Part shown: positions 26,708-52,869 of the stretch, one piece after another | How the letters are laid out: each line of letters opens with the position of its first letter | Position numbering within the stretch: the stretch's first letter is position 1 | NCBI GenBank assembly: GCA_029934475.1 | Contig: JAOZMC010000002.1 | Coordinates: forward strand, 27-64,026 | Origin: Arcobacteraceae bacterium | GTDB lineage: Bacteria; Campylobacterota; Campylobacteria; Campylobacterales; Arcobacteraceae | Direction: 5' to 3' | Length of the DNA stretch: 64,000 bases | Program-made: the position numbers and the translations under genes | The notes under the pieces: generated by a model | What the model was told of the DNA's origin: nothing | Databases searched by the model: none | The model's input: only the letters and a program-made list of their open reading frames with translations

Positions 26708-26917
26708 ATGATAAAGATAATCATAATCGGTGTAGTCCTATTTTTGGTCTATATGCTGTTTTTCAAAAAGATAAGACAAGATGGTAAACCACCACAGGAG
26801 AAAGACAAAACCATAGAAACTATGTGCGAGTGCCACAAATGCAAAGTTTTAATATCTAAAAACGAAGCGATATTAAGCAACGGAAAGCTGTATTGTAGCA
26901 AAGAGTGTCTAGCTTGA
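26708..26917 (+). CDS. PP0621-family small membrane-anchored Cys4 (TRASH-like) protein
   Basis: 69 aa with an N-terminal TM helix, then CECHKC-x17-CSKEC, which looks like a zinc ribbon. Confidence 0.55.
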   Translation: MIKIIIIGVVLFLVYMLFFKKIRQDGKPPQEKDKTIETMCECHKCKVLISKNEAILSNGKLYCSKECLA

Positions 26918-27447: not shown

Positions 27448-30400
27448 ATGAATAATATTTACAAGTTAAAATCAATATCAATAGCGACAATATTTTCGTT
27501 GTTTTTGGTAGGCTGTGAGCTAGGCAATATCAAAACTGCTATATCTATAGAGGGTAGAGTAGCCAAAGGTGCTATAGGTGGAGCTACTGTCACAGCATAT
27601 AAGGCTGGCACGACAGAAGTGATAGGAACTGCAACCACAGATACAAATGGCTACTACAAGCTAGACGGCGATATATTTTATGACGGTGTGATTTATATAG
27701 AATCTGCTGGTGGAACATATACAGATGAGCTCACAAATGCTGCCGGCAAAGATGCCAGTGTGTTTGACCTACAAGCTGTATCAAAAGTGGGTGCTGATGA
27801 TGGATATGTATTAAATATTACACCATTTTCAACTGTGGCATACAGAACCATGCAAAATGATGGAGCAGATATAACTTCTCCAACTACTGTAGGCAAATAC
27901 AACAAGGCAATATCGGATATATTTATAGGCAATGGCTTTGATATCACTAAGACCACACCAAACCTGCACGGCGATACGACTGACAATGACTTAGATAGCG
28001 AAGATGAAGAAAAGTATGGTTTCATGCTAAAAGTATTTACAAAGATGATAAACTCAAACGAAGCAAATGTAAATGGCAAGATAAACGATATAGTCGGTGC
28101 TATCGTGAGTCTTGACGATATGACTATCACAGAGGCTTTGGCAGATGAGATAATAACAACATTTATAGACCCTGTGGTAGCTACAGATATGACAGCTGAA
28201 GAGATATCTGATATGAATGACACTATCAATGATGCTAGAGATACAAAGCTACCAGATATCAGTGGCTCTTTGGCGAAAATATCTGCCGAGTTCAATACCA
28301 CCATAGCTACTTGGTCGCCAGTAGTAGCTCCTACAGGTGGGGTTATAACTAGCTGTGAAATATCACCAGACATCAACACGAGCTATGGCTTGACATTTGA
28401 CAAAACCAATTGTCAAATAAGCGGCAAACCAAACAAAGTAAATACAGAATCGTTTACTATAGTGCCAGCAAACCTCAAAGGCAAGGGAAACTTTTTTGTC
28501 ATATCTTTGGAAGTAAACAAGACAGCACAAGCACCATTTTCGCTAGATGGTAGCACAGTGTTTGAAAAAAACTCTACAGACTACACACAGACGACTGTAG
28601 GCGGTAGCTGTGTAGATGGAAGTTTGAGTTTTGAATCAAACGATACAAATGTAGCAGATATCACACCTGTAAGCGGTATCATAGACTTCAAAAATGTAGG
28701 CACAGTCCGTATCACGGCGACACTTAGCTGTGATGAATATAACGACATATCAGCAACAAAAGATATAACAGTAAATGATGTAGCTCCTGTCATCACTAGT
28801 CCAAACGATATCGTAGGCGAATACAACCAAACCATGACAAACTGGATACCAGACAGTAGCACAGGTGGCACGATATCTAGCTGTGAGATAGCTCCTGCTA
28901 ACTTTGAGGCAACTTATGGACTTGAGTTCAACGAAACAACATGTGAGATAAGTGGCAAACCAACAACTACAGTGCTAAATGCAGGAGGGATAAATATACA
29001 GATAAAAGCTATAAATCCTACAGGAGACAGCACTGTGTCTGTAAATCTAAAGATAGACAGAACAGACCAAAGCCCGGTGGTATCTATAGCACCAGATCAA
29101 GTATGTGTCGTAGACGATACATTTCCACAGACTGCCACAGGTGGAAGCAGTAGTGCTGTGGGATACATATATGGCACAGAGGACCCAAATATAGCCACAG
29201 TAGATGCTAGTGGTATGGTCACATGTGTAGCAAACGGCGATGTAAACATCACTGCTACGAAAGCTATGGATAGCTTTTACAACGCAAGCACAGGTAAATA
29301 CAAGGTATCTGTAGGATTGGTGCCACCAAATATCAACAACCCACAAACCACTACAGGCGTATATGGTGAAGCTGTCAGCTGGGAAGTCAACAACACAGGA
29401 GGTGTGTATGATAGCTGTATAATCACGCCAAACTTAGCACCAGATGACATAACTACAAAATACGGACTGGTATTTGATGTGGGTGACTGTAGTATAGATG
29501 GTTCGCCGACTGCTACAACTACTGGCGATGTGTCATATACTATCAAAGCGGTAACTGCAGACAGAGGAAACAGCACCAAAAATATAAACATAATCATTGA
29601 CAAAGCTTTGCAAAGTCCGTTTGGTTTTGATGATGGCATAACTTTAAATATAGGAGAAGTATCACCAAAAGCACTGGACCACATAGGCAACGGCACAGGG
29701 ACTATATCTTATGTAAGTACAGATGAAAATATGGCAGTAGTAGATGTAAATTCTGGAGCTATTACTTCTGTGTTGGCAGCAGGAACTGTAGAGATAAATG
29801 CTACTAAACAAGCTGACAACAACTATCAAATAGCTCATGCTTCATATATTTTAACTATACAAGCAGCCGATCCAAATATCACGAGTCCTGGCAATATCAT
29901 AACTGAATACAACACAACTATCACTACAAATTGGCTACCAAACAACACAAACGGCGGCCCTATCGAGGAGTGTGAGATATTGCCACTATTTACAGCAAAC
30001 AGCGGTATGGAGTTCAACACAACCACATGTGAGATAAGCGGAACTCCTCTATATACAAAAGAGAGTGGCACACTATATACTATAACTGCCAAAAACAAAA
30101 GCGGTGCAGGAGTTAGCACTACATCGGTTAAACTCACTGTAAACAAAGCAGACCAAGACCCACTTATCGTGCCTTTGGCTACTGTTGATGATACTATGGC
30201 AGATGTAAGCCATCAGCAAATTATTACAGGCGGTAGTGGCACAGGTAATATCACATTTAGTGGAGCAGTGGCAGGTAAATTTACTGTAGATACAAACAGC
30301 GGGTTGGTCACATATATAGATGAGATAGCAGGTGCTGTCATAACTGTATCAAAAGCAGAAGACGACAACTACAACGATATATCAACTACATATCTGTTGA

Positions 30401-31878
30401 ATATAGGCGACTTTAAGCCCGAGATAGGCACTTCTGCTACAGTGGCTATAGGCACATACAATGAGACAAACAACACTTTGTGGGAAGCAAACAACACAGC
30501 AGGCACAGCTACATTGGGTTACGAGACAGATCCTGCCTTGCCAAATGGTTTGTCTATAAACAACATAGGCGTGATAGGCGGAACTCCTACGAGTGCTATG
30601 AGTGCTACTGCCTACACAATCATGGCGAAAAATGCCTCTGGCAATGATACTATAGTAGTAAATATCACTATAAACAAAGCAACACAATCAAACTTTGTGT
30701 TTAACACAGGCAACAGGACAGGAGCAGTAGGCACACAATATACATATTCTGTGATAAACACAGATGTGCCTGCTGGAAATCTTATCTATACATCTTCTGC
30801 TTTGGGAGTAGATGTATCTGCCAATACAGGGTTGGTAGTCATAAGCCCAACGGCAACCTTTGGTAATGTAACCATATCTGCCACAAATAATGGCGACGGA
30901 AACTATAGTTCTACTACTGCTAGCTATATATTAGAAGTTACAGACCAAGCACCAAATATAGCAAATCCTACTACACCAAACTCAATCGTAGGTTCTTATG
31001 GCGACAACATAGGCTTTGACTTCAACAATACAGGTGGAACTATAAGCGGATGCGTGATATCAAGCGGAACTTTGCCAAATGGCTTGGCGGTAGCGGTCGT
31101 AGGCAACACCTGTCGCATACAAGGTATAGTGACCGAAGTCAAAGGCATTGGTGCATATACAATACAAGCTACAAACACAGCTGGTGATACTAGCACTAGA
31201 GGAGTGCAGATCACTATAAACAAAGCAGACCAAGCAGCATTTACAATATATGGCGACCAAACTATACCAGTGACAAATACGGCACATACTCAAACAGCAG
31301 ATGGTGGAAGCACAAACGAGGCGATACTGTATAGCTCTAGCAACACAACTGTAGCCCATGTAGATCAAAACGGCTTGATAGCACCGCATGTAGCTGGAAA
31401 CACTACTATAACTGCTATAAGACCAGGAAATGTCAGCTACAATGATATCAACGATAGCTATCTACTGACAGTCACTGATGCGGTGCTACCTACTGTTGAT
31501 TATGTAGCATCTACACCTACAAATGGTGCCATAGATGCAAACGGAACAGCAGATATCATAATAGTATGGAGCGAAGCAGTCAAGAAAATTGATGGATTTA
31601 ACATAGAGATAAAAAGCAAAGGCAACACAGCCCATGTGAAAGGTTATACTACAAACAACATAGTAGCAAACGGCGATACAAATGTTACTTTGTCGCTAGG
31701 AACGGGACATCTGAGCTATGGCGAGGAGTATTATATAGTCATAGATGCTGGAGCATTTGAAGATATGAGTGGCAACGATGCTGTTGCTCAAGGTGGAGAC
31801 GGCACATGGAATTTCACTGTGCCAACACAGACAGGCGATTGTGCCTATGATTGTGTAGACAATTGTGATAATTATTAA
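27448..31878 (+). CDS. Giant surface/secreted lipoprotein, paralog 1 (1476 aa): N-terminal domain, 6 x (He_PIG/cadherin-like Ig + Big_2-like Ig), SbsA-like Ig domain, Cys tail
   Basis: Lipobox FLVGC. Repeated modules are GG.I.SCEI.P....YGL.F...TC.ISG.P (paired Cys) alternating with .GGS...I.Y.S.D..VA.VD..G.V......G.V.ITATK. The C-terminal 130 aa are colinear with paralog 2. Confidence 0.85.
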   Translation: MNNIYKLKSISIATIFSLFLVGCELGNIKTAISIEGRVAKGAIGGATVTAYKAGTTEVIGTATTDTNGYYKLDGDIFYDGVIYIESAGGTYTDELTNAAGKDASVFDLQAVSKVGADDGYVLNITPFSTVAYRTMQNDGADITSPTTVGKYNKAISDIFIGNGFDITKTTPNLHGDTTDNDLDSEDEEKYGFMLKVFTKMINSNEANVNGKINDIVGAIVSLDDMTITEALADEIITTFIDPVVATDMTAEEISDMNDTINDARDTKLPDISGSLAKISAEFNTTIATWSPVVAPTGGVITSCEISPDINTSYGLTFDKTNCQISGKPNKVNTESFTIVPANLKGKGNFFVISLEVNKTAQAPFSLDGSTVFEKNSTDYTQTTVGGSCVDGSLSFESNDTNVADITPVSGIIDFKNVGTVRITATLSCDEYNDISATKDITVNDVAPVITSPNDIVGEYNQTMTNWIPDSSTGGTISSCEIAPANFEATYGLEFNETTCEISGKPTTTVLNAGGINIQIKAINPTGDSTVSVNLKIDRTDQSPVVSIAPDQVCVVDDTFPQTATGGSSSAVGYIYGTEDPNIATVDASGMVTCVANGDVNITATKAMDSFYNASTGKYKVSVGLVPPNINNPQTTTGVYGEAVSWEVNNTGGVYDSCIITPNLAPDDITTKYGLVFDVGDCSIDGSPTATTTGDVSYTIKAVTADRGNSTKNINIIIDKALQSPFGFDDGITLNIGEVSPKALDHIGNGTGTISYVSTDENMAVVDVNSGAITSVLAAGTVEINATKQADNNYQIAHASYILTIQAADPNITSPGNIITEYNTTITTNWLPNNTNGGPIEECEILPLFTANSGMEFNTTTCEISGTPLYTKESGTLYTITAKNKSGAGVSTTSVKLTVNKADQDPLIVPLATVDDTMADVSHQQIITGGSGTGNITFSGAVAGKFTVDTNSGLVTYIDEIAGAVITVSKAEDDNYNDISTTYLLNIGDFKPEIGTSATVAIGTYNETNNTLWEANNTAGTATLGYETDPALPNGLSINNIGVIGGTPTSAMSATAYTIMAKNASGNDTIVVNITINKATQSNFVFNTGNRTGAVGTQYTYSVINTDVPAGNLIYTSSALGVDVSANTGLVVISPTATFGNVTISATNNGDGNYSSTTASYILEVTDQAPNIANPTTPNSIVGSYGDNIGFDFNNTGGTISGCVISSGTLPNGLAVAVVGNTCRIQGIVTEVKGIGAYTIQATNTAGDTSTRGVQITINKADQAAFTIYGDQTIPVTNTAHTQTADGGSTNEAILYSSSNTTVAHVDQNGLIAPHVAGNTTITAIRPGNVSYNDINDSYLLTVTDAVLPTVDYVASTPTNGAIDANGTADIIIVWSEAVKKIDGFNIEIKSKGNTAHVKGYTTNNIVANGDTNVTLSLGTGHLSYGEEYYIVIDAGAFEDMSGNDAVAQGGDGTWNFTVPTQTGDCAYDCVDNCDNY
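28255..31485 (+). repeat. Array of about 12 alternating Ig-like coding modules (protein-level repeats) in paralog 1
   Basis: Six He_PIG-like and six Big_2-like modules of about 85-95 aa each, identified by recurring motifs in the translation. Confidence 0.7.
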
Positions 31879-31888
31879 GGAGAAAAAG

Positions 31889-34800
31889 ATGAAAAAATAT
31901 ATAAAAATATTATTGGTAATGATACCAATACTGTTGATATCATTTAGTGGATGTGGAGACAAAGGAACCGAAGGTGCCGTAACTACTGGATTGATCATAG
32001 AAGGCAGAGTGGCAAAAGGCTCTATAAGTGGAGCTACCATAGAAGTGTTTGATACAACTACTGGCGACTCTCTAGGGGTAGATGTGACCGATAGCCAAGG
32101 ATATTATAGCATAAAAACTTCGGCAAATACAAAAGGTGTAGTTAGACTTACGGCAAATGGTGGTTCGTTTATAGATGAACAAACAGGCAATCAACTAGAC
32201 GCTTCTGCTTTTGAGCTTGTAGCAGTCCAAGACACTACATATGAAGAAAGTATAGTAAATATAAATATTACTCCATTTACGACTGTATCGTATAAAAAAC
32301 TTATAGCAGACGGTAAAGATATAGGTTCAAAAGATGATGTGACCAAATACAACAAAGCTATAGCGAGCATATTTGTAGGAAACAAAAATATAGAGATCAC
32401 AAAGCTAGAGCCAAATATTGTAAACGATGCAAACGACAATCACCTAGACACAGATGACCAAAAAAATTATGGCACTATACTAGCAGCATTTTCAGGAATG
32501 ATACAAAACACTCCCGTGCTTACAACATCAGAGATAAACAATATTGTTGGGAAAATCAAAAATATAGAATATGCTACTATAGAGCAAGACTTAGCAAGCC
32601 ATATACAAAGCTATATTGCTGACATAAACACTACCAACGAACAGACAGATGAAAGTGTAAATGATATCAACAACTCAATAGAAAAAGCAGTATATTCAGT
32701 AGTGCCAAATATAATCGACTCAGCACCAAACCTAGACGATAATATAGATGAGAACAGCACAAAAATATCTTGGATACCTGTAACAAAAGAGGAAAGTGTC
32801 ACAAGCTGTAAATTGGGAGACGGTGTAAATCTAGCTGAATACAATCTTACATTTGATAGCGAAACATGTGCTATAACAGGAGAACCAAATGCTACGCACA
32901 CAGGAAAAGATATATATATAATTCCTTCAAATCCAGAAGGTGAAGGACTACCTTTTAGCTTAAATTTCAAGATAGATAGGATAGCACAAGCACCGATATC
33001 GTTTGTTCCTAGTGATAAAGAGGAGTTTAATGTGACAGATGGCAACTTTGATTTTGATATAACTGGTGGGACTTGTGATGATCTATCTGCTACAAGATTT
33101 GTATCTAGTGATACAGATGTAGCAAAAGTAAATATCAGCACAGGAATAATAGATATTAACACCACTGGAATATTTACACTCACAGCTACAAAAACTTGCA
33201 GCGAAGGCTATCTAGCAAAAGAGGTATCAAAAACAATAACCGTGCTACAAGTTCTCCCAAATATTGCTACAAGCACAGACATAAATGCTTCTATGAGTCA
33301 AGTGCTTGATTGGAATGTTACAAACACAGGCGGCTCTATAGATAGCTGTGCTATAGATACAGATATAAAAACACTCTACAATCTTGACTTTGACCAAACA
33401 ACTTGTGCTATTACTGGTGTGCCAAATACGACAAATATACCAGTTGGTATAGATGTGTCTATCACGGCTACAAACAGTATAGGCGACAACATTCAAGCTG
33501 TGCATATCCTTATAAATAGCAATCCAAACATAGATAATCCACAAAATACTATAGGTATATACAATACTCCAGTTGTATGGGATGTAAATAATACTGGCTC
33601 AAATGTAGGCATGATAACTAGTTGTGAAATAACACCAAATACGCTAAAAAACAACTACAATCTTGACTTCAATCAAACAAACTGCCAAATCACAGGTGAA
33701 GCAAACAAGACAACTACAGGCGACAACAGCTACACTATCACAGCAAAAAATATATCTGGCAATAGTGCTAAAAATATCAATATAGTTATAGACAGATCGC
33801 CACAAGATCCGATACTATTTGACCCAAATACCAAAAATGAATTTAACTTGACTGATATTGATTTTGACTTTGGTATCACAGGTGGAAACTGTAGCGGCAT
33901 AGAAACTATAACATATAACTCAAACGACACAGCTATAGCAGATGTCAATACGACTACCGGTGTAGTAAATATGCAAGGTGTAGGTGAGTTTAACCTCACT
34001 GCGACAAAAACTTGTAGCGAAAACTATTTGCCTGCAGTTGTGTCTAAGCTTATGACGGTTCACAATGTCGTGCCAGATATAACCAACGACAACAATATCA
34101 CAACTGAATATAATACTACTATAGCTACATGGAGACCATCAAATACAGGTGGAACTATCACCGGTTGTGCTTTGGACCAAGATATCAATAGCATGTATGG
34201 GTTGGATTTTAATGATACTACATGTGCTATATCAGGAGAGCCAAATGCCACCATACAAGCTGGCATCAACATAGGAGTTACAGCTTCAAATGAGATAGGA
34301 GATAGCAACACAATAGTATTACAACTAATTATAAACAAAGCTGTCCAAAATCCAATAGTAGATATGACAAACAACAATGCCAACTGCTACAAAGGAACAT
34401 CACCAATCATACACAAAGATGCTACAGGCGGGAGTAGTTCGTTTGATTATAACTATACTTCAAGCGACACAAATATAGCTACTGTAGATCCTGTCACAGG
34501 AGTAGTGAGTTGCATAGAGTTTGGTGAAGCAAATATCACGGCTACTAGAGCTGAAGATGACAATTGGCTTGAAAGTTCTCACTATTATACTATAGTGGTT
34601 TCAAACAATGCTCCAAATATAGACAATCCGCAAAATACTACAGGAATATATAATGAAGCAGTAGTATGGGATGTAAACAATAGTGGAGCAAATGTAGGAC
34701 CGATAGAAAGCTGTGAAATAACTCCAAACAATCTAAAAGCTACATACAATCTAGACTTCAATCAAACAACATGCCAAATCACTGGCATACCAAGTGCCTC

Positions 34801-37174
34801 TACCATAGGGGATAGTAGCTGGACCATTAAAGCTATAAACACTACAGGAAATAGCACAAAAAATATAAATATTGTTATAGATAAGGCTGAGCAAAATCCA
34901 TTTGGTTTTGACAACAATCTAACAATACACAAGTATGCAACTGGCTCAAATGCTCTTGATCATATAGGCAATGGCACTGGAGTTATTGAGTTTAAAAGCT
35001 TGGATGAGGATTTTGCGGTTGTAGATAGTGGTTCTGGCGATATAACACAAGCAAAGCAGATAGGAGACGTTCAAATACTTGCCACAAAAGGTAGTAGCGA
35101 CAACTTCAAAGAGACCAATGCCACATATACTTTGACTATCATAGATGCTGACCCAAATATCACAACACCAAACGATATATCTATAGAATACAATGAAACA
35201 TTTAGTTGGATGCCAGATAAAACAAATAGTGGCGAGATTGATAATTGTTCTATATTGCCTGTATTTGCAGCAAACAGCGGATTAGAGATAAACAACACGA
35301 CATGTGAGATAACAGGAGCTCCGCTTTTTGTAAAAGAAAGTGGGACAGAACATACTATAACCGCTACAAACAAAGCAGGAGTTGGTGTAGATACTACGAT
35401 AGTAGATATAGTAGTAGTAAAAGCGGAACAACAAGCACTTATAATACCACAGTCATTTATCAGTGATATTATGAGTGATATAGGACACCAGCAAGTCATC
35501 ACTGGAGGAAGTGGCGATGGAAATATCACATTTAGCAGTGCTGCATCGCCTACATTTATAGACCTAAACACAACTACAGGTGCTGTAGTATATAAAAAAC
35601 CATTTGACAACAACAAAACTATTATAGTATTGAAAAAAGGCAATGACTTTTATAAAAACAAGCAAGATAGCTACAAGTTTGTAGTAGGTGATTTTATACC
35701 GAACCTATCTGACTCTATAGCAGCAACAAGTGCAAATTTTGATGAGCTAAACAATACTTTATGGGAGCCTATAAATACAGGTGGCAATACTACATATGAC
35801 TATACCACAAACCCAGCTTTGCCTGCTGGATTGACTATACATCCCACTACAGGTATCATAGGTGGCACACCACAAAGCGCTCAAGATTCTGCACCATACG
35901 AGGTCAATGCCACAAATGCATCTGGCACATCATTGTTTGTAGTCAATATTACTATAAACAAAGTCCCTCAACCAAACTTTAGATTTAATGACGGCAACAG
36001 AACTAGTGAGCTAGGAACTAGCTTTGAATACAATGTTACAAATATAGACGCCCCTACAGGCACACTCACATATACCACAAGTGACCCAGCCAAAGCACTA
36101 GTAACAAACAGTGGAGTCGTGACTATAAACGATGCAGATACAAAAGGTAATGTAACTATAACAGCTAGAAATCAAGGCGATGGAAACTACAGTAGCACAG
36201 TAGCAACATATATCATAACCATAATAGACAAAAAGCCAAATATAGCAAACCCTATGACAAGTGAAGAACTAAATACCACTTATATGCAGACAATCCCAAC
36301 TTTCGAGTTTAATAACACAGGCGGTCCAGCCGTGAGCTGTATAACTGTGGGTGATGATTTGCCTACTGGATTGGAAGTAAATGTGACAGCTGGTGGCAAT
36401 TGTGTCATCACAGGCACACCAACCGAGGTAAAAACAGATCAAATATATACTATACGGGCTATAGGAGAGTTTGGCGATGAAAGCACCAAAGAGATACATC
36501 TATTTGTAGACAAAGCACATCAAACTGGATTTGATATAGTAGATGTGGATAAATATCTTGAGTCTGTAGTGTTGGATTTCAACAGAACTGGCTATGGTGG
36601 CAACACAACTTTGGATATACAATACACCTCTAGCAACGAAACTATAGCACTAGTAGGAGCGATCACTGGTGTGATAACACCAAAAACTACTGGCAATGTG
36701 ACAATAACAGCAACAAAACCAGGAAATGTAAGCTTCTATGATGCCAATGCAAGTTATAAGTTGATAGTGCAAGATACTTTAAGACCAGTAGTGGATTATG
36801 CCATATCTACACCTACAGACGACGAAGCAGATGCAAATGCAACTGCAAACTTGATCATAGTATGGAACGACAATATATCTATAAATGATGGCAAAACTAT
36901 ACGAATAAAAAGTGATGGCGATACCAACCTCACAATAACATACAGCACCACAGATTTGGTGATAGTTGGCGATAGAAATATTACTTTGGATTTGGGCAAC
37001 TTACACTTAAGTTATGGCGAGGAACACTATATTTATATAGAAGCTAACTCAGTAGCAGACAGTGGTGGAAATGTGAACGATGCAATAGACGATCAAACTA
37101 GCTGGAATTTTAGTGTATTGAGCGACAGTGGGCCTTGTAAACTAGATTGTGTGGACAATTGTGACAATTATTAA
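31889..37174 (+). CDS. Giant surface/secreted lipoprotein, paralog 2 (about 1761 aa): same architecture with 8 He_PIG-like + 7 Big_2-like modules
   Basis: RBS AAGGAG at 31877-31882 and ATG at 31889 (the track start 31865 lies inside the paralog 1 coding end). Lipobox SFSGC. The N-terminal domain (IEGRVAKGSISGAT...) and C-terminal 130 aa are homologous to paralog 1. Confidence 0.85.
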   Translation: MKKYIKILLVMIPILLISFSGCGDKGTEGAVTTGLIIEGRVAKGSISGATIEVFDTTTGDSLGVDVTDSQGYYSIKTSANTKGVVRLTANGGSFIDEQTGNQLDASAFELVAVQDTTYEESIVNINITPFTTVSYKKLIADGKDIGSKDDVTKYNKAIASIFVGNKNIEITKLEPNIVNDANDNHLDTDDQKNYGTILAAFSGMIQNTPVLTTSEINNIVGKIKNIEYATIEQDLASHIQSYIADINTTNEQTDESVNDINNSIEKAVYSVVPNIIDSAPNLDDNIDENSTKISWIPVTKEESVTSCKLGDGVNLAEYNLTFDSETCAITGEPNATHTGKDIYIIPSNPEGEGLPFSLNFKIDRIAQAPISFVPSDKEEFNVTDGNFDFDITGGTCDDLSATRFVSSDTDVAKVNISTGIIDINTTGIFTLTATKTCSEGYLAKEVSKTITVLQVLPNIATSTDINASMSQVLDWNVTNTGGSIDSCAIDTDIKTLYNLDFDQTTCAITGVPNTTNIPVGIDVSITATNSIGDNIQAVHILINSNPNIDNPQNTIGIYNTPVVWDVNNTGSNVGMITSCEITPNTLKNNYNLDFNQTNCQITGEANKTTTGDNSYTITAKNISGNSAKNINIVIDRSPQDPILFDPNTKNEFNLTDIDFDFGITGGNCSGIETITYNSNDTAIADVNTTTGVVNMQGVGEFNLTATKTCSENYLPAVVSKLMTVHNVVPDITNDNNITTEYNTTIATWRPSNTGGTITGCALDQDINSMYGLDFNDTTCAISGEPNATIQAGINIGVTASNEIGDSNTIVLQLIINKAVQNPIVDMTNNNANCYKGTSPIIHKDATGGSSSFDYNYTSSDTNIATVDPVTGVVSCIEFGEANITATRAEDDNWLESSHYYTIVVSNNAPNIDNPQNTTGIYNEAVVWDVNNSGANVGPIESCEITPNNLKATYNLDFNQTTCQITGIPSASTIGDSSWTIKAINTTGNSTKNINIVIDKAEQNPFGFDNNLTIHKYATGSNALDHIGNGTGVIEFKSLDEDFAVVDSGSGDITQAKQIGDVQILATKGSSDNFKETNATYTLTIIDADPNITTPNDISIEYNETFSWMPDKTNSGEIDNCSILPVFAANSGLEINNTTCEITGAPLFVKESGTEHTITATNKAGVGVDTTIVDIVVVKAEQQALIIPQSFISDIMSDIGHQQVITGGSGDGNITFSSAASPTFIDLNTTTGAVVYKKPFDNNKTIIVLKKGNDFYKNKQDSYKFVVGDFIPNLSDSIAATSANFDELNNTLWEPINTGGNTTYDYTTNPALPAGLTIHPTTGIIGGTPQSAQDSAPYEVNATNASGTSLFVVNITINKVPQPNFRFNDGNRTSELGTSFEYNVTNIDAPTGTLTYTTSDPAKALVTNSGVVTINDADTKGNVTITARNQGDGNYSSTVATYIITIIDKKPNIANPMTSEELNTTYMQTIPTFEFNNTGGPAVSCITVGDDLPTGLEVNVTAGGNCVITGTPTEVKTDQIYTIRAIGEFGDESTKEIHLFVDKAHQTGFDIVDVDKYLESVVLDFNRTGYGGNTTLDIQYTSSNETIALVGAITGVITPKTTGNVTITATKPGNVSFYDANASYKLIVQDTLRPVVDYAISTPTDDEADANATANLIIVWNDNISINDGKTIRIKSDGDTNLTITYSTTDLVIVGDRNITLDLGNLHLSYGEEHYIYIEANSVADSGGNVNDAIDDQTSWNFSVLSDSGPCKLDCVDNCDNY
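32702..36781 (+). repeat. Array of about 15 Ig-like coding modules in paralog 2, including an internal module duplication
   Basis: Modules at about 33526-33810 and about 34612-34900 (NIDNPQNT.GIYN..VVWDVNN.G.NVG.I.SCEITPN.LK..YNLDFNQT.CQITG...) resemble each other more than any other module pair. Confidence 0.7.
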
Positions 37175-37213: not shown

Positions 37214-37242
37214 ACAAACCCCAAAATATATTTGGGGTTTGT
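37214..37242 (+). terminator. Strong hairpin between giant gene 2 and the T2SS-like operon (terminator/attenuator or RNA-stability element)
   Basis: Perfect 12-bp stem ACAAACCCCAAA/TTTGGGGTTTGT with a 5-nt loop, 40 nt after the stop. No U-tract follows on the + strand. Confidence 0.5.
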
Positions 37243-37274: not shown

Positions 37275-38150
37275 ATGAAAAACTCTGTAGTGTTGCCATT
37301 TGTGCTTATGTTTGTGATGTCGTTTTCTATGCTTGTAGTAAATTTCGTTCAGAGCACTAGCCATATCATAGAGCAAAATCCATATCAAGATATAATCATA
37401 TCAAATACAGCGATAAACTCTATCAAGACAACCATAGTGAAGGCTCTAGCACCATACAGTAAAGTTCCAGACGAAGAGGTGTTGGCAATGTTGGCAAACA
37501 TAACCATAACTGATAAAAAAAATATCATAACTATGTCTGTCAGCATAGAAAAAGCCCCAACACTGATAGATATAAATCGTATGTTTGTATTTAACAAGAG
37601 ATTTAACCAATGGAAACTTAAAGACAAAATAAGAGTATGGCTAGTTGATGCTTTGAGTTTAAGGTTTGAATTAAATGAGCCATACTACTTGATAATGCTA
37701 CTAGAAAACACTTTAAATCATAATAGTGAGATAGTTTCAGAAAACTTTAGATATAATGAGGGGAAAATATATAGTTTGAAACATTTTTACAAAACTGTGG
37801 ATTATTATAAATTCTTTACAAGTGATGATATGATAGACAAAATACAATTTGAAGATATGTTTAGTTTCGACGATACAAACGATACTAGATATTGTGATGA
37901 TATGACCGATGTTGTATCAAAGCTTGTATCGGACGAGTATGATACAGAGGATTCTGGGATTGATTGTGAAAGCCCTACGGCAATTGTCAAGGAAAAATTA
38001 GATAGCTTGGGTATAATAAGTGGAAATGATAGCAGCTCACAAAAAGTCACAGGAACAGTGAGCTTCACATCTAACAACAAAGAAAAAATAGCAAACTTTG
38101 CTTATGATTTCAAAAAAAAGGAGATAACAAGTTTTGATATTCGGTTCTAG
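37275..38150 (+). CDS. Bitopic protein, first gene of the T2SS-like operon (GspK-like minor pseudopilin by position/topology only)
   Basis: 291 aa with RBS AAGGA. It has an N-terminal hydrophobic helix (VVLPFVLMFVMSFSMLVV) without the Glu5 motif and an acidic C-terminal region. No family motif recognised. Confidence 0.45.
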   Translation: MKNSVVLPFVLMFVMSFSMLVVNFVQSTSHIIEQNPYQDIIISNTAINSIKTTIVKALAPYSKVPDEEVLAMLANITITDKKNIITMSVSIEKAPTLIDINRMFVFNKRFNQWKLKDKIRVWLVDALSLRFELNEPYYLIMLLENTLNHNSEIVSENFRYNEGKIYSLKHFYKTVDYYKFFTSDDMIDKIQFEDMFSFDDTNDTRYCDDMTDVVSKLVSDEYDTEDSGIDCESPTAIVKEKLDSLGIISGNDSSSQKVTGTVSFTSNNKEKIANFAYDFKKKEITSFDIRF

Positions 38151-38970
38151 CAAAAGCAATCACTTTTTTTTGGATAAAAATACAAAAGAGTTTGCTACTC
38201 ACTCTGTCAATATTATACTGTCTCCTAGTTTTTATTGGACTAAGATACAAGAGATACCAGTGCTTACAGTATATGGTGCAAAAGAGTATTCTAATTCTAT
38301 ATTTGAAGGACTATTGCCAGAGGGCAACTGGACATATTTTGTTCAAAAAGAAGCAAAAAATCTATATAGATTTTTTGCTTTTGATCAAGATGAGCTTTTG
38401 GATTTTATCATATCAATAGGTGGCGACGAGCAGTATGTTCGCTCTTTGTATTTTGCACAAAATGAGTTTGATGATATATTGGACGATGAACAGTCAAAGT
38501 TTATATCTATAAGCGATAACAAATGTATGACAAAAATTCAAAACTCTGTCGTACTAGTGCCAAAAACTATAGTAACAGATAGTATAGATATGGATGATAT
38601 CTTAGATGATATAAAACTTTCACAACATGATATAAAAATAGATACCAACATCAGTATAAACACAGATATATTTATGGTGTTTATAGTTGTGGGATTGATA
38701 TTTTCATCTGGATTTGTTATAAATATAATCAACTATAACATGGAGATAGCAAAACTAGAAAACAATATTACAGAAAAAATCAAAATTCTAAAGCTACCAG
38801 AGACATCATTTGAACTAGAAGCTATAGCTACACAAAGTTCTGCAAAGATAAAAGAGCAAATAAACATAAGAAAAAATATCAAACAAATAAGCTCTATAAA
38901 AACAACACAATACGGCAAAATAAAGAAGCTAAAAATAACAAAAGAAAAGTTATCGGTATATGACAAATAA
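38134..38970 (+). CDS. Bitopic protein with about 180-aa cytoplasmic part, one central TM helix and C-terminal coiled segment (GspL/PilM-N-like by topology)
   Basis: 278 aa with a TTG start that overlaps the upstream gene by 17 nt. TM helix FMVFIVVGLIFSSGFVINIINY. Assignment is by architecture, not by motif. Confidence 0.45.
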   Translation: MIFGSSKSNHFFLDKNTKEFATHSVNIILSPSFYWTKIQEIPVLTVYGAKEYSNSIFEGLLPEGNWTYFVQKEAKNLYRFFAFDQDELLDFIISIGGDEQYVRSLYFAQNEFDDILDDEQSKFISISDNKCMTKIQNSVVLVPKTIVTDSIDMDDILDDIKLSQHDIKIDTNISINTDIFMVFIVVGLIFSSGFVINIINYNMEIAKLENNITEKIKILKLPETSFELEAIATQSSAKIKEQINIRKNIKQISSIKTTQYGKIKKLKITKEKLSVYDK

Positions 38971-39346
38971 AAATAAAAATTATCTACTAATAGCTTTTGT
39001 GGTTGGGTTTATTCTGCTTTTTATAACTACAAATAAATTTGAATCAAAAAAAGATGATGCTGTAACAAAATACACCACGATGCAAAAACTGCTACTAGAT
39101 GTAGAAAAAAACAAAGACAAATTTACTTATGAAAAAACCAAAGCCATAATAGATTCTGCTACATTTAAACAATATATAAAAACAGAAGAAAAAGAAAACT
39201 TGACAACGATAGTGTTTAATGCTCCATTAAAAATAGCAAATGCTTTCATTCGAAAGCTGGCAAATTCAGATTCATTGTTGGGCGAAATAGAGATACAACA
39301 AATAGAAAAAAGAGTCAAGATAATAATCAGGATAAAAAATGGATAA
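38960..39346 (+). CDS. Small bitopic protein (GspM-like by size/topology)
   Basis: 128 aa with N-terminal TM helix YLLIAFVVGFILLFITT followed by about 100 aa of periplasmic alpha/beta region. Overlaps both neighbours. Confidence 0.45.
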   Translation: MTNKNKNYLLIAFVVGFILLFITTNKFESKKDDAVTKYTTMQKLLLDVEKNKDKFTYEKTKAIIDSATFKQYIKTEEKENLTTIVFNAPLKIANAFIRKLANSDSLLGEIEIQQIEKRVKIIIRIKNG

Positions 39347-39923
39347 TATAAAAGCTATTTTATCTGTAATTATAGACAGACTAAGAGGACTAGAGAGCAT
39401 GCATATAGGTGGTGGTGTGAAGTTTCTCTTGTATGGCTTTTTGATACTGTTTTTTATAGTTTTTTTGTCACCCAAACAACAGCTCTATTTTTATCTCGAA
39501 GAAAAACTACAGCCATATAAAATCATAATATATCAAGAAAAGATTGAGCCGTTAAACACAGGTATATGGCTAAAAGATGGTATGGTCTCTTATGACAAGA
39601 TATTTATAGGATTGTTTAGCAATATAGTCATAAATACATATTTTTTCAAGACAAATATAGTCGTAGATGGTTTTCTGATAGACAAGGATTTTGAGATGTT
39701 TATACCATCAAAGATAGACAAGATAGCACTATCTCATAGTATTGTAAATCCGCTAAATGTTATCATAGAAGCGAAAGGAGAGTTTGGTGAGCTTGATGGG
39801 ACTTATGATTTTATCAGCGGTAAGCTAAAGCTGAAACTAAAGCCTAGCGATATCATGAAAACAAAAAAAGCATCACTAAAACTCATGACAAAAACCAAAG
39901 ATGGATACAAATATGAGAAATAG
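39339..39923 (+). CDS. Bitopic protein (GspN-like by size/topology)
   Basis: 194 aa with TM helix FLLYGFLILFFIVFL and a beta-rich periplasmic part ending in a GEFGELDGTYDFISGKLKLKLK-type motif. Confidence 0.4.
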   Translation: MDNIKAILSVIIDRLRGLESMHIGGGVKFLLYGFLILFFIVFLSPKQQLYFYLEEKLQPYKIIIYQEKIEPLNTGIWLKDGMVSYDKIFIGLFSNIVINTYFFKTNIVVDGFLIDKDFEMFIPSKIDKIALSHSIVNPLNVIIEAKGEFGELDGTYDFISGKLKLKLKPSDIMKTKKASLKLMTKTKDGYKYEK

Positions 39924-40818
39924 AGGTATGATAGCAAACGGACTGCTAATAATAGCTTTGATATATCTTTTCATGTCTGTAGTCAAGATATTTTTGCCTA
40001 TAACATCTGTAGAGCTACAAAAAGAAATTGACTATAATTTTGCATTTAACTACTCTTTACAAAATATTTACAAAGATAAAACAAAGAAAAAAGGCAGTCA
40101 AAATAGATCTAGCTTGGATTTTAAGCTTATAGGTATATATAGCGATGGTAAAAACAGTGTGGTGATAGTCAGCAAAGATAAAAGAACTGAAGTGGTAGCA
40201 GTAGGCGAAGAATATAAAGGCTATAAGCTAGTGGATACTACAAACATATTGGCTATATGGACTAGAGACAATACCCACTATGAACTTTCTATAGAAGATA
40301 CAAAAGATAGAAAGATAGAAGCAGCATACAAAATAGAAAATGATGATCCTTTTGGAACAAAAGAGATAAAATACACCGATATACAATACTACAAAAAAAA
40401 TCCACAAAAACTTTGGGATGAGATAAATATAAACAAAACAAAGGCGGGCTACACAGTAACCAAGATAGAGCCAGGCTCAAAGCTATCTACAATAGGTCTA
40501 AAAAAGGGCGATATTATAAAAGTTATAAATGGAACTGAACTGAAAGAAGACAGAGATGCTATAAAATTCTATAAAGATATAAAAAATTTAGAATTTATAA
40601 TCATTTCTGTCTTGCGTGGCGATAAATATATAGATATAGAGTATAATATAAAATCAGAACGACAACTACCAGAAGAAGAAGAGCCAAATGAGCAAATAAT
40701 GCCTGAAAAAGAAGATATTAATATAGAACAGATAGAAATTAAAGAAAAAAACGATACAATAGAAAAAAAGCAAGACAAAAGGTCTAAAAGCAACAATACA
40801 CTAGAGGATAACAGATGA
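39901..40818 (+). CDS. gspC: T2SS protein C-like (TM anchor + HR-like region + PDZ domain)
   Basis: 305 aa with N-terminal TM helix LLIIALIYLFMSVV and PDZ signature LSTIGLKKGDIIKVINGTEL. It lies immediately upstream of the secretin and is coupled to it (ATGA). The true start may be 39913 or 39928. Confidence 0.65.
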   Translation: MDTNMRNRGMIANGLLIIALIYLFMSVVKIFLPITSVELQKEIDYNFAFNYSLQNIYKDKTKKKGSQNRSSLDFKLIGIYSDGKNSVVIVSKDKRTEVVAVGEEYKGYKLVDTTNILAIWTRDNTHYELSIEDTKDRKIEAAYKIENDDPFGTKEIKYTDIQYYKKNPQKLWDEININKTKAGYTVTKIEPGSKLSTIGLKKGDIIKVINGTELKEDRDAIKFYKDIKNLEFIIISVLRGDKYIDIEYNIKSERQLPEEEEPNEQIMPEKEDINIEQIEIKEKNDTIEKKQDKRSKSNNTLEDNR

Positions 40819-43016
40819 GAATGATAGTAAAAGTTTTGATGGTAGTTATACTATTTGGCAACTTTGCTTTTGGCAAAGATACTGTAAACATAAACTTCAA
40901 AGGACTAAACATACGGGACTTTGTCAAAATGGTAGCAAAGATACGAAACGAAAATATACTTATAGGCAGTAAGCTAAGCGGAAGTATAAACTTCATATCG
41001 GTCAAGCCAATACCAAAGAAATCACTCATGACACTACTAAATCATGTGCTAGAAACCAAGGGCTTCACTCTAGTTCGCACAGGACATAGGTATCTCAAAG
41101 TAGTCAAAATAGCAGATGCAGGTAGATCGGGATTGCCAGTAAATACAACTAAAGATACTTTCCAGATTGTCACAGAGATCATAGAAGTAGATGGAATGAA
41201 TGTTGACTTGTTGGTAACCAAGCTAAGACATCTAGTGACCAAAAACTCAAAAATAACCACTTCAAAAGAGACAAATGCTTTGATAGTTACCGATTATCCA
41301 GACAAAATCAAAAGTATAAAAAAGATTATAAATCTACTATCAAGTAAAAGTCAGCTAAGAACACAAGTGATAAGACTAGAGCATATAAAGGCAGATGTAA
41401 TAGGACCAGACATACTCAAAATTACCAAAAACCTATTTGACCCAAAAATAGCAAAAAACAATCTTGATATCATCGTCAATACAAAGACAAATACTATAAC
41501 TTTGGTCGGCAGACAATCCCAGATAGATAGAGTAGCCGAGCTAATAAACGACGCAGACAACCAAGACGACAAATCATCTATAGTCATGGAAGTAATACCC
41601 ATAAACAATAGTAGTGCCGAAGAGATGATAAAAATACTAGAGAAATTTTATGCCACAAAAGGCAAAAATGTTCTATATCAACCAAGCTTTATGAACGACA
41701 AAGAACTCAACTCTGTCATAGTGAGAGCTAGAAAAAGAGATATAGATGATATCTTTGATGTCATCAAAAAACTAGATGTACCAAAACCACAAGTATATGT
41801 AAAAGCAAGGATTATAGAGATATCTGATGAAAAGGCCAGTGATATAGGAATCAAATATGGTCTAACTGGTGGCAAAGTGACCAGCAATGGTCTCATGACA
41901 ATGAGTGCAAATATGGGCGGACAGTCAATAGCAGTAGATAGCACACTGATGAGCTATATAGATATAGACACAAATCTAAAAGAGTTTTTTGCACTTGGTG
42001 CTACATTGTCGCTGCTACAAAGAGATGGAGCGGCTGAAGTGTTGAGCGAACCGTCACTGCTTTGTCTAAATAACAAAGAGTCAGAGATATATGTAGGAAA
42101 TACCCAATCAGTCGTGACAACAACAGCAAAAGGCACCACTAGCACATCCGATACTACAAACAGCTACAAAAGAGAAGATATAGGTCTAACACTCAAGATA
42201 AAACCACGACTCTCAAGTGACAACAAAGTTACTCTAGAAGTTTCTACTATCATTGAAGATGTGCTAGGATCAGATAGCAACGGACAGCCCATAACCACCA
42301 AAAGAACAGTCAAAACTACAGCCATAGTAAACGATGCAGAGTTAGTCATGTTAGGCGGTCTAAACAAAACAAAAGAGACTACAGATATATCAAAAGTGCC
42401 GTTGCTGGGTGATATACCTGTGCTTGGAGCATTGTTTAGAAACACAAATAAAACCATGTCAAAAACATCTCTGGCTATCATGTTAACTCCATATATCATA
42501 GATGAAAACAGAAACATAAGCAAACTCAGAAATGACTTAAATATGTTAGCATTAGCTCAAGATGACTATACCACTAAAGCTATGGCAATACTTGACAACG
42601 GTGATGTGCGAGAAGTTCGGCTAGAAAAGAGAAAGACCAAAAACCCAGACAATATCTCAAGTCCCACAGCCAAAAAAAGCTTTATAAAACGATCAAGCCC
42701 ACAAGCACAACAAAGATATTATAACAAGCCCAAAACTTATAAAAAGCCCAAAAAAACCAAAAAGTATTACAAGCAACAACCAAAAGGCAAATACAATATA
42801 TATGTTGGTAAGTATTATAGTTTTAGCGAGATCAAAGAGATAAGAAACGACAAAAAAGTAAATACAAACACAGATATGAAGCTAAACTATGATGGCAAAA
42901 ATATATTTGAAGTGAGTGTCGGTCCATACAGGACTATGACAAAGACTAAAAAAATCTTAAAATATATAAAAGAGAAATACAACGAAGATGCCTATATCAA
43001 AGACAAAATAAAATAG
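40815..43016 (+). CDS. gspD: T2SS secretin GspD with C-terminal Lys-rich linker and SPOR-like domain
   Basis: 733 aa with signal peptide and N0 domain (VNINFKGLNIRDFVKMVAKI...NILIG). The secretin core includes VPLLGDIPVLGALFR. A 120-aa C-terminal extension follows. Confidence 0.9.
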   Translation: MRMIVKVLMVVILFGNFAFGKDTVNINFKGLNIRDFVKMVAKIRNENILIGSKLSGSINFISVKPIPKKSLMTLLNHVLETKGFTLVRTGHRYLKVVKIADAGRSGLPVNTTKDTFQIVTEIIEVDGMNVDLLVTKLRHLVTKNSKITTSKETNALIVTDYPDKIKSIKKIINLLSSKSQLRTQVIRLEHIKADVIGPDILKITKNLFDPKIAKNNLDIIVNTKTNTITLVGRQSQIDRVAELINDADNQDDKSSIVMEVIPINNSSAEEMIKILEKFYATKGKNVLYQPSFMNDKELNSVIVRARKRDIDDIFDVIKKLDVPKPQVYVKARIIEISDEKASDIGIKYGLTGGKVTSNGLMTMSANMGGQSIAVDSTLMSYIDIDTNLKEFFALGATLSLLQRDGAAEVLSEPSLLCLNNKESEIYVGNTQSVVTTTAKGTTSTSDTTNSYKREDIGLTLKIKPRLSSDNKVTLEVSTIIEDVLGSDSNGQPITTKRTVKTTAIVNDAELVMLGGLNKTKETTDISKVPLLGDIPVLGALFRNTNKTMSKTSLAIMLTPYIIDENRNISKLRNDLNMLALAQDDYTTKAMAILDNGDVREVRLEKRKTKNPDNISSPTAKKSFIKRSSPQAQQRYYNKPKTYKKPKKTKKYYKQQPKGKYNIYVGKYYSFSEIKEIRNDKKVNTNTDMKLNYDGKNIFEVSVGPYRTMTKTKKILKYIKEKYNEDAYIKDKIK

Positions 43017-52819: not shown

Positions 52820-52869
52820 TTTTCAGTAAATAACTTTTGGATTAAGAAAGTTTGGATAAAATACCCAAA

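What the first reader, a model, noticed from the sequence alone, without database searches (positions are those of the whole stretch)
31486..31878. Conserved C-terminal domain ending in an identical cysteine tail, C-x3-C-V-D-N-C-D-N-Y-stop, in both giant proteins
Seen in sequence: the last 130 aa of both paralogs (31486-31878 and 36782-37174) align without gaps. They have a Big_5/SbsA-like Ig pattern (...IIVW.....I......I.IKS.G.T.........V..GD.N.TL.LG..HLSYGEE.YI.I.A....D..GN......D.T.WNF.V). Both terminate in GDCAYDCVDNCDNY (31837-31875) and GPCKLDCVDNCDNY (37136-37171). In these otherwise diverged proteins the last nine residues, DCVDNCDNY, are identical. The tail does not resemble the C-terminal sorting tags I know (LPXTG, PEP-CTERM, GlyGly-CTERM, T9SS CTD, autotransporter barrel). 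Established knowledge: GlyGly-CTERM/rhombosortase tags are linked to T2SS cargo in Vibrio and Shewanella, so C-terminal tags on T2SS substrates have precedent. Inference: the tail may be a new recognition, anchoring, metal-binding or disulfide-locking tag specific to this secretion locus.
Basis: partly seen in the sequence, partly recalled or inferred. Interest (0 to 1): 0.8.

Follow-up and report, generated by a model that had tools for sequence, protein, structure and literature searches.

The report
Cysteine-triad cap on Ig-like domain
Two giant surface lipoproteins encoded next to a type II secretion system both end in the same very rare three-cysteine peptide, but a related protein carries that peptide mid-chain as well, so it looks like a small structural or cross-linking cap on an Ig-like domain and not a new C-terminal sorting tag.

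Summary
ORF A (27448-31878) and ORF B (31889-37174) are paralogous giant lipoproteins, 46% identical. Their last 130 aa align without gaps. Both end in G-[DP]-C-x-[YL]-D-C-V-D-N-C-D-N-Y-stop.

The same tail closes the orthologues in a syntenic Arcobacteraceae MAG and in one metagenome fragment. Synonymous codon differences argue for selection on the peptide. No Pfam or NCBIfam model matches the tail. It has no hydrophobic segment, and the window encodes no sortase-type enzyme.

Apart from the window's own two proteins, billion-scale protein searches found only two proteins with the motif: that metagenome fragment and P0101. DNA-pattern scans of metagenome and viral contigs found no true copy.

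P0101 is a cadherin-repeat protein with the core G-x-C-x3-C-V-D-N-C-D twice. One copy is internal and is followed by more domains. The other is C-terminal but ends in NPH. The conserved unit is therefore a 12-residue cap on a rare Big_5 Ig-domain subtype. It is not an obligate C-terminal tag.

My preferred reading, which is inferred, is a disulfide-stapled and possibly cation-binding knob at the membrane-distal tip. The odd number of cysteines could cross-link two caps. Recognition by the GspC PDZ domain remains an unrefuted minority reading. Function is untested. Interest is modest.

The parts
27448..31878 (+). ORF A, a giant lipoprotein of 1476 aa: lipobox signal, N-terminal domain, He_PIG/Big_2-type repeats, a terminal Big_5 domain and the Cys-triad tail
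   Evidence: He_PIG 2.6e-15, Big_2 1.2e-9. The identical protein P0025 is held in the public collection.
27448..27516 (+). Lipoprotein signal peptide of ORF A (MNNIYKLKSISIATIFSLFLVG|C)
   Evidence: Read directly from the sequence. The L-V-G-C lipobox was judged by eye; no signal-peptide predictor was run.
31504..31818 (+). Big_5 (PF13205) Ig-like domain of ORF A
   Evidence: E 5.4e-9, residues 7-111 of the 130-aa segment. The AF2 model is an all-beta sandwich in this part.
31834..31875 (+). Cys-triad cap of ORF A, GDCAYDCVDNCDNY, followed by the stop codon at 31876-31878
31889..37174 (+). ORF B, the paralogous giant lipoprotein of 1761 aa, 46% identical to A. Its start lies 11 nt after A's stop codon and is preceded by an AGGAG.
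   Evidence: Identical to P0028.
31889..31954 (+). Lipoprotein signal peptide of ORF B (MKKYIKILLVMIPILLISFSG|C)
   Evidence: Read directly from the sequence, by eye.
36800..37114 (+). Big_5-like Ig domain of ORF B, assigned through its gap-free 50% alignment to ORF A's domain
   Evidence: There was no direct Pfam Big_5 hit.
37130..37171 (+). Cys-triad cap of ORF B, GPCKLDCVDNCDNY, followed by the stop codon at 37172-37174
37214..37242 (+). Perfect 12-bp hairpin after ORF B, terminator-like. It suggests that A and B form their own transcription unit.
   Evidence: sequence; -18.1 kcal/mol, z -5.15.
37275..39923 (+). Four ORFs (291, 278, 128 and 194 aa) with N-terminal or internal hydrophobic segments and no family match. 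They may be divergent T2SS assembly-platform or GspN-type components.
   Evidence: Searches gave no hits. They are conserved at 78-87% in L002. The proposed role is inferred from position only.
39901..40818 (+). GspC-like protein with a C-terminal PDZ domain
   Evidence: PDZ_2, 3e-4. GspC_delta 7.4e-17 and TIGR01713 8.7e-12, both below the curated cut-offs.
40815..43016 (+). GspD secretin
   Evidence: Secretin 1.9e-43, Secretin_N, GspD N0
43017..44240 (+). GspF
   Evidence: T2SSF 7.6e-43
44240..45150 (+). Two small pseudopilin-like proteins (129 and 174 aa)
   Evidence: hydrophobic N-termini. Searches gave weak N_methyl and GspJ hits only.
45147..46661 (+). GspE ATPase
   Evidence: T2SSE 2.3e-134

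Best explanation
The conserved element is a 12-14-residue cysteine-triad cap, G-x-C-x-(hydrophobic)-[DT]-C-[VI]-D-N-C-D. It is appended about five residues after the last beta-strand (WNF-x-V) of a rare subtype of the Big_5 Ig-like domain.

Shown:
- It is a portable addition to that domain. It is terminal in ORFs A and B, and both internal and terminal in P0101.
- It is strongly constrained at the protein level.
- It is unlike any catalogued sorting signal.
- ORFs A and B have lipobox signal peptides and lie beside a T2SS.

Inferred:
- The two proteins are exported, acylated and displayed on the cell surface through the T2SS, as PulA and InvL are. That puts the cap at the membrane-distal tip of a long rod of Ig-like domains.
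- In the oxidising periplasm the three cysteines form a small disulfide-stapled knob, and the D-N-x-D side chains may hold a cation.
- All other cysteines in A and B make an even count, while the cap contributes three. One thiol is therefore left over, or two caps pair (3 + 3 cysteines giving three disulfides). Such pairing could link A to B tip to tip, or link the two caps of P0101 within one chain.

On this reading the tail is a structural or cross-linking module. It is not an address label that a sorting enzyme reads at the free C-terminus.
For: - Motif and alignment. G, the three C, and D-N-(C)-D are invariant in seven modules from four sources.
- Orthologous syntenic loci keep it: L002 in an Arcobacteraceae MAG and L001.
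- Synonymous variation: the Val/Ile position is encoded gta, ata, gtt and gtg, Asp is gac or gat, and the stop is taa or tag.
- ORF A is the fastest-evolving gene of the locus, at 59% identity against 71-91% for every other gene compared. Even so, 13 of its last 14 residues are kept.
- P0101 carries an internal and a terminal copy in a cadherin/He_PIG context.
- Only 5 of 1301 Big_5-type 'WxF' domain ends in the 150 best-scoring Big_5 proteins are followed by the triad. Those proteins are almost free of cysteine, with a median of 0.09%.
- Cysteine bookkeeping: A has 18 (1 lipobox + 14 + 3) and B has 24 (1 + 20 + 3).
- No sorting-tag model matches. No sortase, exosortase or rhombosortase turned up among the ORFs I scanned; the scans did not cover every ORF of the window.
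- Precedent for short terminal CX3C-spaced peptides that cross-link structural proteins by disulfide exchange: the minicollagen cysteine-rich domains (PMC4863159).
Against: - There is no structural evidence. AF2 gives the tail pLDDT below 50, and the two-cap P0101 construct could not be modelled (pLDDT 41).
- The 'always in pairs' argument rests on only two independent cases: one locus lineage and P0101. Simple duplication would explain it just as well.
- Within the Arcobacteraceae clade the extreme C-terminal D-N-Y is invariant in 5 of 5 sequences. A purely structural cap does not obviously require that.
- Disulfide connectivity, metal content and surface exposure are all untested.
- P0101's genomic context could not be retrieved, so a link to a T2SS there is neither shown nor excluded.
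Confidence: 0.45

Rival explanations
1. T2SS cargo determinant. The C-terminal Ig-like domain together with its tail is what this T2SS recognises. The free C-terminus ...C-D-N-Y-COOH would dock in the PDZ domain of the locus's GspC, and PDZ domains classically bind C-terminal peptides.
For: - Both tail-bearing genes lie directly upstream of T2SS genes in the window and in L002.
- GspC here has a PDZ domain.
- In V. cholerae the EpsC PDZ domain is required for VesB secretion. VesB's C-terminal Ig-fold carries a PDZ-dependent signal that can be grafted onto another protein (PMC12369372).
- D-N-Y-COOH is invariant in 5 of 5 clade sequences.
- It formally fits the class III PDZ ligand pattern [DE]-x-hydrophobic-COOH. 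This last point is from my own knowledge and was not tested.
Against: - P0101 has one internal copy with no free carboxylate, and its terminal copy ends in D-N-P-H.
- Known T2SS determinants are structural, not linear (discussion of PMC12369372).
- The known sorting determinant for T2SS lipoproteins is N-terminal, next to the lipobox (PMC12802150).
- No interaction modelling was possible with the tools available.
- The co-occurrence with a T2SS rests on a single evolutionary lineage.
Confidence: 0.2
2. Reactive thiol or metal-binding tip. The three thiols stay reduced and bind a soft metal, or carry sulfane sulfur, at the cell surface. They would act as a functional binding site and not as a structural staple.
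For: - An odd cysteine triad sits in an otherwise paired-cysteine protein.
- It lies at the predicted distal tip of the rod.
- Acidic and amide residues flank each cysteine.
- SoxY carries sulfur intermediates on a C-terminal GGCGG arm. This is from my own knowledge; it is a lead and was not tested.
Against: - Nothing in the window points to sulfur or metal metabolism.
- Free thiols on an exported protein are unusual in an oxidising periplasm.
- C-x3-C-x3-C is not an established metal-site spacing. The only PDB sequence match was a non-significant ferredoxin segment with E 1.5.
Confidence: 0.12
3. New sorting or processing tag. The tail is cleaved or covalently attached by a dedicated enzyme, by analogy with GlyGly-CTERM/rhombosortase and PEP-CTERM/exosortase.
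For: - The position is terminal in 5 of 5 clade sequences.
- It is associated with a secretion locus.
- Four uncharacterised ORFs (37275-39923) lie between the cargo genes and gspC.
Against: - There is no hydrophobic helix or basic cluster; the tail is DCVDNCDNY.
- No NCBIfam tag model matches.
- No recognisable sorting enzyme was found.
- P0101 has an internal copy followed by folded domains.
- The four unknown ORFs have the membrane topology and order expected of T2SS platform proteins, not of enzymes. This is inferred from the sequences.
Confidence: 0.08

Closest known systems
Big_5 (PF13205) bacterial Ig-like domains of giant surface proteins
   Same: ORF A's last domain scores above the Pfam threshold. 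A profile of the module retrieves 2762 Big_5-repeat proteins. The model is a beta-sandwich.
   Different: Ordinary Big_5 repeats are cysteine-free and run straight into the next repeat. Only this small family adds the G-x-C-x3-C-[VI]-D-N-C-D cap (5 of 1301 domain ends).
T2SS-dependent surface lipoproteins (PulA of Klebsiella, InvL of Acinetobacter)
   Same: ORFs A and B have a lipobox signal peptide, multi-Ig architecture and a position next to T2SS genes (PMC12802150).
   Different: Secretion was not tested. The residues after the lipobox Cys (C-ELGN in A, C-GDKG in B) lack the GGG or ND(N/D) motif described for Acinetobacter. No GspN is recognisable. Neither PulA nor InvL is known to carry a cysteine tail.
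VesB C-terminal Ig-fold, a PDZ-dependent T2SS signal in V. cholerae, with its GlyGly-CTERM
   Same: A C-terminal Ig-like domain on a T2SS substrate, and a GspC with a PDZ domain in the same system (PMC12369372).
   Different: VesB's tail is a GlyGly-CTERM with a transmembrane helix that rhombosortase processes. Here the tail is short, acidic and cysteine-rich, with no transmembrane segment and no rhombosortase.
Minicollagen cysteine-rich domains (CX3CX3CX3CX3CC)
   Same: Short terminal peptides with CX3C spacing on extracellular structural proteins. They are proposed to cross-link the monomers through intermolecular disulfide bridges (PMC4863159).
   Different: They are eukaryotic and have six cysteines with a defined fold. 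The element here has three cysteines and no detectable homology. This is an analogy only.
Catalogued C-terminal sorting signals (LPXTG, PEP-CTERM, GlyGly-CTERM, MYXO-CTERM, T9SS CTD)
   Same: C-terminal position on secreted or surface proteins.
   Different: No model matches. The tail has no hydrophobic or basic tail region and no cognate enzyme. It also occurs internally in P0101.

Membership tests
Big_5 (PF13205) Ig-like domain | Pfam HMM score above the gathering threshold | tested here: met
   ORF A: 37.2 bits against 23.6, E 5.4e-9. ORF B gets no direct hit but aligns to A without gaps at 50% identity.
Big_5 (PF13205) Ig-like domain | Beta-sandwich fold | tested here: inconclusive
   The AF2 model has mean pLDDT 68 and is almost entirely beta-strand, with one short helix. 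Foldseek gives only generic Ig-like matches with E of 0.02 or higher.
Sortase/exosortase/rhombosortase-type C-terminal sorting signals | Signature motif followed by a hydrophobic helix and a basic cluster at the C-terminus | tested here: not met
   The tail is GDCAYDCVDNCDNY, with no hydrophobic or basic segment. There is no NCBIfam hit at E up to 1.
Sortase/exosortase/rhombosortase-type C-terminal sorting signals | Cognate processing enzyme encoded in the genome or locus | tested here: not met
   None was found among the window ORFs that I scanned. The rest of the genome was not available.
Sortase/exosortase/rhombosortase-type C-terminal sorting signals | Strictly C-terminal position | tested here: not met
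   P0101 has an internal copy at residues 955-966, followed by about 210 residues.
T2SS-dependent surface lipoprotein (PulA/InvL type) | Lipobox signal peptide | tested here: met
   ...FLVG|C in A and ...SFSG|C in B, read from the sequence. Orthologues have LSGC, FTGC and FSGC. No predictor was run.
T2SS-dependent surface lipoprotein (PulA/InvL type) | Sorting motif GGG or ND(N/D) at P2'-P4' after the acylated Cys (Acinetobacter rule) | tested here: not met
   The residues are C-ELG and C-GDK, compared with the motif in PMC12802150. The rule may well be species-specific.
T2SS-dependent surface lipoprotein (PulA/InvL type) | Secretion and surface exposure that depend on GspD and GspN | not testable with these tools
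   This needs genetics. Only adjacency to gspC, D, F and E is shown.
PDZ C-terminal peptide ligand (for GspC PDZ) | Free C-terminus ending in a hydrophobic or aromatic residue that binds the PDZ groove | tested here: inconclusive
   The terminal residue is Y in 5 of 5 clade sequences. P0101 ends in NPH and also has an internal copy. Binding could not be tested.
Minicollagen-type cysteine-rich domain | Six cysteines in the pattern CX3CX3CX3CX3CC | tested here: not met
   Only three cysteines are present, as C-x3-C-x3-C. The pattern is taken from PMC4863159.

The most novel reading that the evidence does not exclude
The tail, presented on the C-terminal Ig-like domain, is a short linear determinant that the PDZ domain of this system's GspC reads in order to select the two giant lipoproteins for type II secretion. 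This would be a rare case of a T2SS signal that can be written as a peptide motif. It could be tested directly by peptide binding and tail swaps.
Probability: 0.12. Interest if true: 0.8.

Novelty: new variant of a known kind. Interest (0 to 1): 0.35.

Why it matters
If the cap is a disulfide cross-linker or a cation-stapled knob, it adds a small portable module to the known parts of bacterial Ig-rod adhesins. It would also explain how two co-expressed giant lipoproteins could be joined at their distal tips.

If instead it is read by GspC, it would give a handle on how T2SS substrates are selected. That question is still open, and no linear signal is known.

Either way the motif is extremely rare. 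It was found in one small Arcobacteraceae lineage and one other protein, so its general importance is limited unless a function is demonstrated.

Tried and rejected
- **Known tags.** NCBIfam and Pfam scans of the whole proteins, the last 130 aa and the last 39 aa found no tag model, and no TSP_3, EGF, LDL-A or other cysteine-motif hit. My recalled resemblance to Ca-binding 'DCxDxxDE'-type motifs therefore remains an untested lead.
- **Word-indexed search of 5.8 billion proteins.** The 2-sequence and 7-sequence module profiles returned only the fragment P0001. The N-terminal domain profile returned nothing.
- **HMMER over 1.84 billion representatives.** This gave 2762 Big_5 hits, but only the best 150 are shown and multi-repeat giants dominate them. 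Single-module proteins with the cap may have been missed.
- **Genome-contig scan.** The tool chose the narrow patterns HLSYGEE[YH] and [LY]DCVDNCD, which cannot find P0101-like variants. It found one true locus.
- **Metagenome DNA-pattern scan.** All 9 hits were chance matches, either interrupted by stop codons or lying in unrelated cysteine-rich repeats.
- **Other collections.** Viral contigs gave 0 hits. Plasmid tblastn gave none.
- **Genomic context.** Exact-sequence contig look-ups failed for P0101 and P0025, so P0101's surroundings are unknown.
- **Structure prediction.** AF2 on the module leaves the tail disordered, with pLDDT below 50 on a 3-sequence alignment. AF2 on the P0101 two-cap region from a single sequence gave pLDDT 41 and was useless.
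- **Structure and sequence comparison with the PDB.** Foldseek and PDB sequence searches gave only generic Ig hits, and nothing covered the tail.
- **DNA-level explanations.** I rejected conservation caused by overlap with ORF B's ribosome-binding site or by recent gene conversion. ORF B's own tail is followed by unrelated sequence, and synonymous differences exist among all five copies.
- **Literature.** Searches for the MAG accession and for Big_5 with a cysteine tail found nothing relevant.
Full report
**1. What is there**

The + strand carries two long adjacent ORFs. ORF A runs 27448-31878 and encodes 1476 aa. ORF B runs 31889-37174 and encodes 1761 aa. ORF B's ATG lies 11 nt after A's stop codon and follows an AGGAG. 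The same two proteins exist as P0025 and P0028 in the public protein collection, from NCBI, on a 64,994-bp contig.

Both begin with a lipobox signal peptide...FLVG|C in A and ...SFSG|C in B. Pfam sees only He_PIG and Big_2 repeats over their length. They are paralogues, 46% identical over 1461 aligned positions.

The last 130 residues of each align without gaps at 50% identity. In ORF A, residues 7-111 of that segment are a Big_5 domain (PF13205, E 5.4e-9). After the final strand (WNFTV or WNFSV) comes a five-residue linker. Then come GDCAYDCVDNCDNY-stop in A and GPCKLDCVDNCDNY-stop in B.

There are only small coordinate offsets: the 14-mers start at 31834 and 37130.

**2. Is it more than chance?**

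Yes, with one caveat. The nine-residue identical run is one of three runs of 9 or more between A and B. The others are ALDHIGNGTG and GNSTKNINI. So the tail is among the best-conserved spots but is not the only one.

Stronger evidence comes from other genomes:
- A scan of GTDB genomes found one syntenic locus, L002, in an Arcobacteraceae MAG (JAOZTH010000001.1). Its orthologues end in GDCAYDCIDNCDNY and GPCELDCVDNCDNY.
- The only hit in the 5.8-billion-protein search, P0001, is a JGI fragment ending in GPCGLDCVDNCDNY. The start of an ORF B orthologue follows it.

Across the five tails the Val/Ile position is encoded by gta, ata, gtt and gtg. Asp is gac or gat, and the stop is taa or tag. Constraint therefore acts on the peptide and not on the DNA.

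ORF A is the fastest-evolving gene in the locus. It is 59% identical between the window and L002, whereas every other gene compared is 71-91% identical (ORF B 78%, GspC 71%). Even so, 13 of its last 14 residues are kept.

**3. Context**

The following genes lie downstream of ORF B:
- a strong hairpin at 37214-37242;
- four ORFs with no family match (37275-39923);
- a GspC-like protein with a PDZ domain (39901-40818);
- the GspD secretin, GspF, two pseudopilin-like proteins and GspE.

The following genes lie upstream of ORF A:
- dnaE;
- a weakly LolA-like protein paired with a weakly RND-like one;
- a beta-barrel outer-membrane protein;
- a PP0621-family protein.

The rest of the window is housekeeping: metH, ligA, parAB, pgm, acs and RNase P RNA. 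No sortase, exosortase, rhombosortase, radical-SAM or other processing enzyme turned up among the ORFs I scanned.

Giant lipoproteins next to a T2SS fit the PulA/InvL paradigm of T2SS-dependent surface lipoproteins (PMC12802150). The N-terminal GGG or ND(N/D) sorting motif reported for Acinetobacter is absent here.

**4. The decisive comparison**

A HMMER search of 1.84 billion representative proteins with the module profile gave 2762 Big_5 hits. Four of the best 150 carry C-x3-C-x3-C: the window's two proteins, P0001 and P0101.

P0101 is 1181 aa, from NCBI, on a 45-kb contig. Its architecture is different: five cadherin repeats, InlK_D3 and He_PIG. It has two Big_5-plus-cap modules:
- ...WNFDLPVSAGPCQMTCVDNCDITDSEEV..., which is internal and is followed by a linker, a He_PIG domain and the second Big_5 domain;
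- ...WSFVIPSGVGDCNIDCVDNCDNPH-stop.

Across all seven modules the invariant residues are G, the three C, and D-N-(C)-D. The terminal N-Y is not invariant, and neither is terminality itself.

Among 1301 Big_5-type domain ends in those 150 proteins, only the five from this family carry the triad. The proteins are otherwise nearly free of cysteine.

A degenerate DNA pattern for the core found 9 places in 241 million metagenome records, all of them chance matches. It found none in viral contigs. Plasmids gave nothing. The motif is real, specific and extremely rare.

**5. What it most likely is**

The unit of conservation is a cap on a Big_5 subtype. It is not a label that depends on the C-terminus. 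Known C-terminal sorting signals are excluded for three reasons:
- no model matches;
- there is no hydrophobic or basic segment and no cognate enzyme;
- an internal copy exists.

Cysteine counts are informative. Outside the lipobox Cys and the tail, A has 14 cysteines and B has 20, both even numbers, in recurring C...C pairs within the repeat domains. The tail adds three.

In an exported protein an odd triad points to one of three things:
- one staple plus a spare thiol;
- a metal site;
- pairing of two triads.

The motif occurs twice per unit in both independent cases: A plus B in the locus, and two copies in P0101. This is weak evidence, since duplication alone would produce it. It does fit cap-to-cap disulfide pairing. 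Minicollagen terminal CX3C-rich domains are a precedent for cross-linking of that kind (PMC4863159).

I therefore favour a disulfide-stapled and possibly cation-binding knob at the distal tip, able to cross-link. My confidence is about 0.45. Every step beyond 'conserved domain cap on lipoproteins next to a T2SS' is inference.

**6. Rivals**

(a) Recognition by the T2SS through the GspC PDZ domain. In V. cholerae the EpsC PDZ is required for VesB secretion, and VesB's C-terminal Ig-fold carries that information (PMC12369372). D-N-Y-COOH is invariant within the clade. P0101's internal copy and its NPH ending argue against a free-carboxylate signal. Confidence about 0.2.

(b) A reduced thiol or metal or sulfur-binding tip. 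Nothing in the window supports it. Confidence about 0.12.

(c) A new enzyme-processed tag. Confidence about 0.08.

**7. Limits**

- AF2 could not model the tail (pLDDT below 50) or the P0101 two-cap region.
- Foldseek and PDB sequence searches give only generic Ig matches.
- P0101's genomic context could not be retrieved.
- The genome scan used narrow patterns, and only 150 of the 2762 representative hits were visible. More cap-bearing proteins may exist.

**8. Verdict**

Novelty is a new variant of a known kind, namely a Big_5 Ig domain with an undescribed cysteine-triad extension. Interest is modest at 0.35. It would rise sharply only if the PDZ-ligand or secretion-signal reading were shown.

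Noticed in passing
window 27448-31878 compared with L002 5966-10393: ORF A is by far the fastest-evolving gene of the locus. It is 59% identical to its MAG orthologue, against 78% for ORF B, 71% for GspC and 78-91% for all other neighbours. That is the pattern expected of a surface-exposed protein under diversifying pressure.
   Followed up: partly
window 37214-37242: A perfect 12-bp stem with a 5-nt loop lies right after ORF B's stop codon (RNA fold -18.1 kcal/mol, z -5.15), but no long T tract follows. It is probably the terminator of an A-B operon, separating it from the T2SS genes.
   Followed up: partly
window 37275-39923: Four conserved ORFs (291, 278, 128 and 194 aa) between the cargo genes and gspC have no Pfam or NCBIfam match, even at E up to 5. 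Their hydrophobic segments and their order suggest highly divergent GspK/L/M/N analogues. A GspN-like role would be relevant to lipoprotein export.
   Followed up: partly
window 40815-43016 (C-terminal ~130 aa): The GspD secretin has a long lysine-rich C-terminal extension. It ends in a segment that looks SPOR-like (peptidoglycan-binding) by eye. No Pfam hit was reported for it.
   Followed up: no
window 23402-25913: An overlapping gene pair sits between dnaE and the outer-membrane protein gene. One is a 156-aa protein with a weak LolA hit and the other a 684-aa multi-pass membrane protein with a weak HpnN/RND hit. It may be a lipid or lipoprotein export pair, and it is conserved at 88-89% in L002.
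   Followed up: no
window 26708-26917: A 69-aa PP0621-family protein (E 3e-19) with one transmembrane segment and a C-x-C-x2-C ... C-x3-C cysteine cluster lies just upstream of ORF A. No link to the tail has been established.
   Followed up: no
L001 55-276: The ORF A-type gene in the metagenome fragment has the B-type start of the tail (GPCGL) and not the A-type (GDCAY). This hints either at exchange between the paralogues' tails or at GDCAY being a derived state.
   Followed up: no
L003 and L006 (metagenome contigs): Two chance pattern hits fall in cysteine-rich repeat ORFs of the form ...C-x2-C-T-D-x3-C-D-x-C.... These ORFs contain in-frame stop codons under table 11, so they probably come from a eukaryote with a variant genetic code. 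They are unrelated to the finding.
   Followed up: no
window 52868-53232: Bacterial RNase P class A RNA (240 bits). No tRNA genes are present anywhere in the 64-kb window.
   Followed up: no
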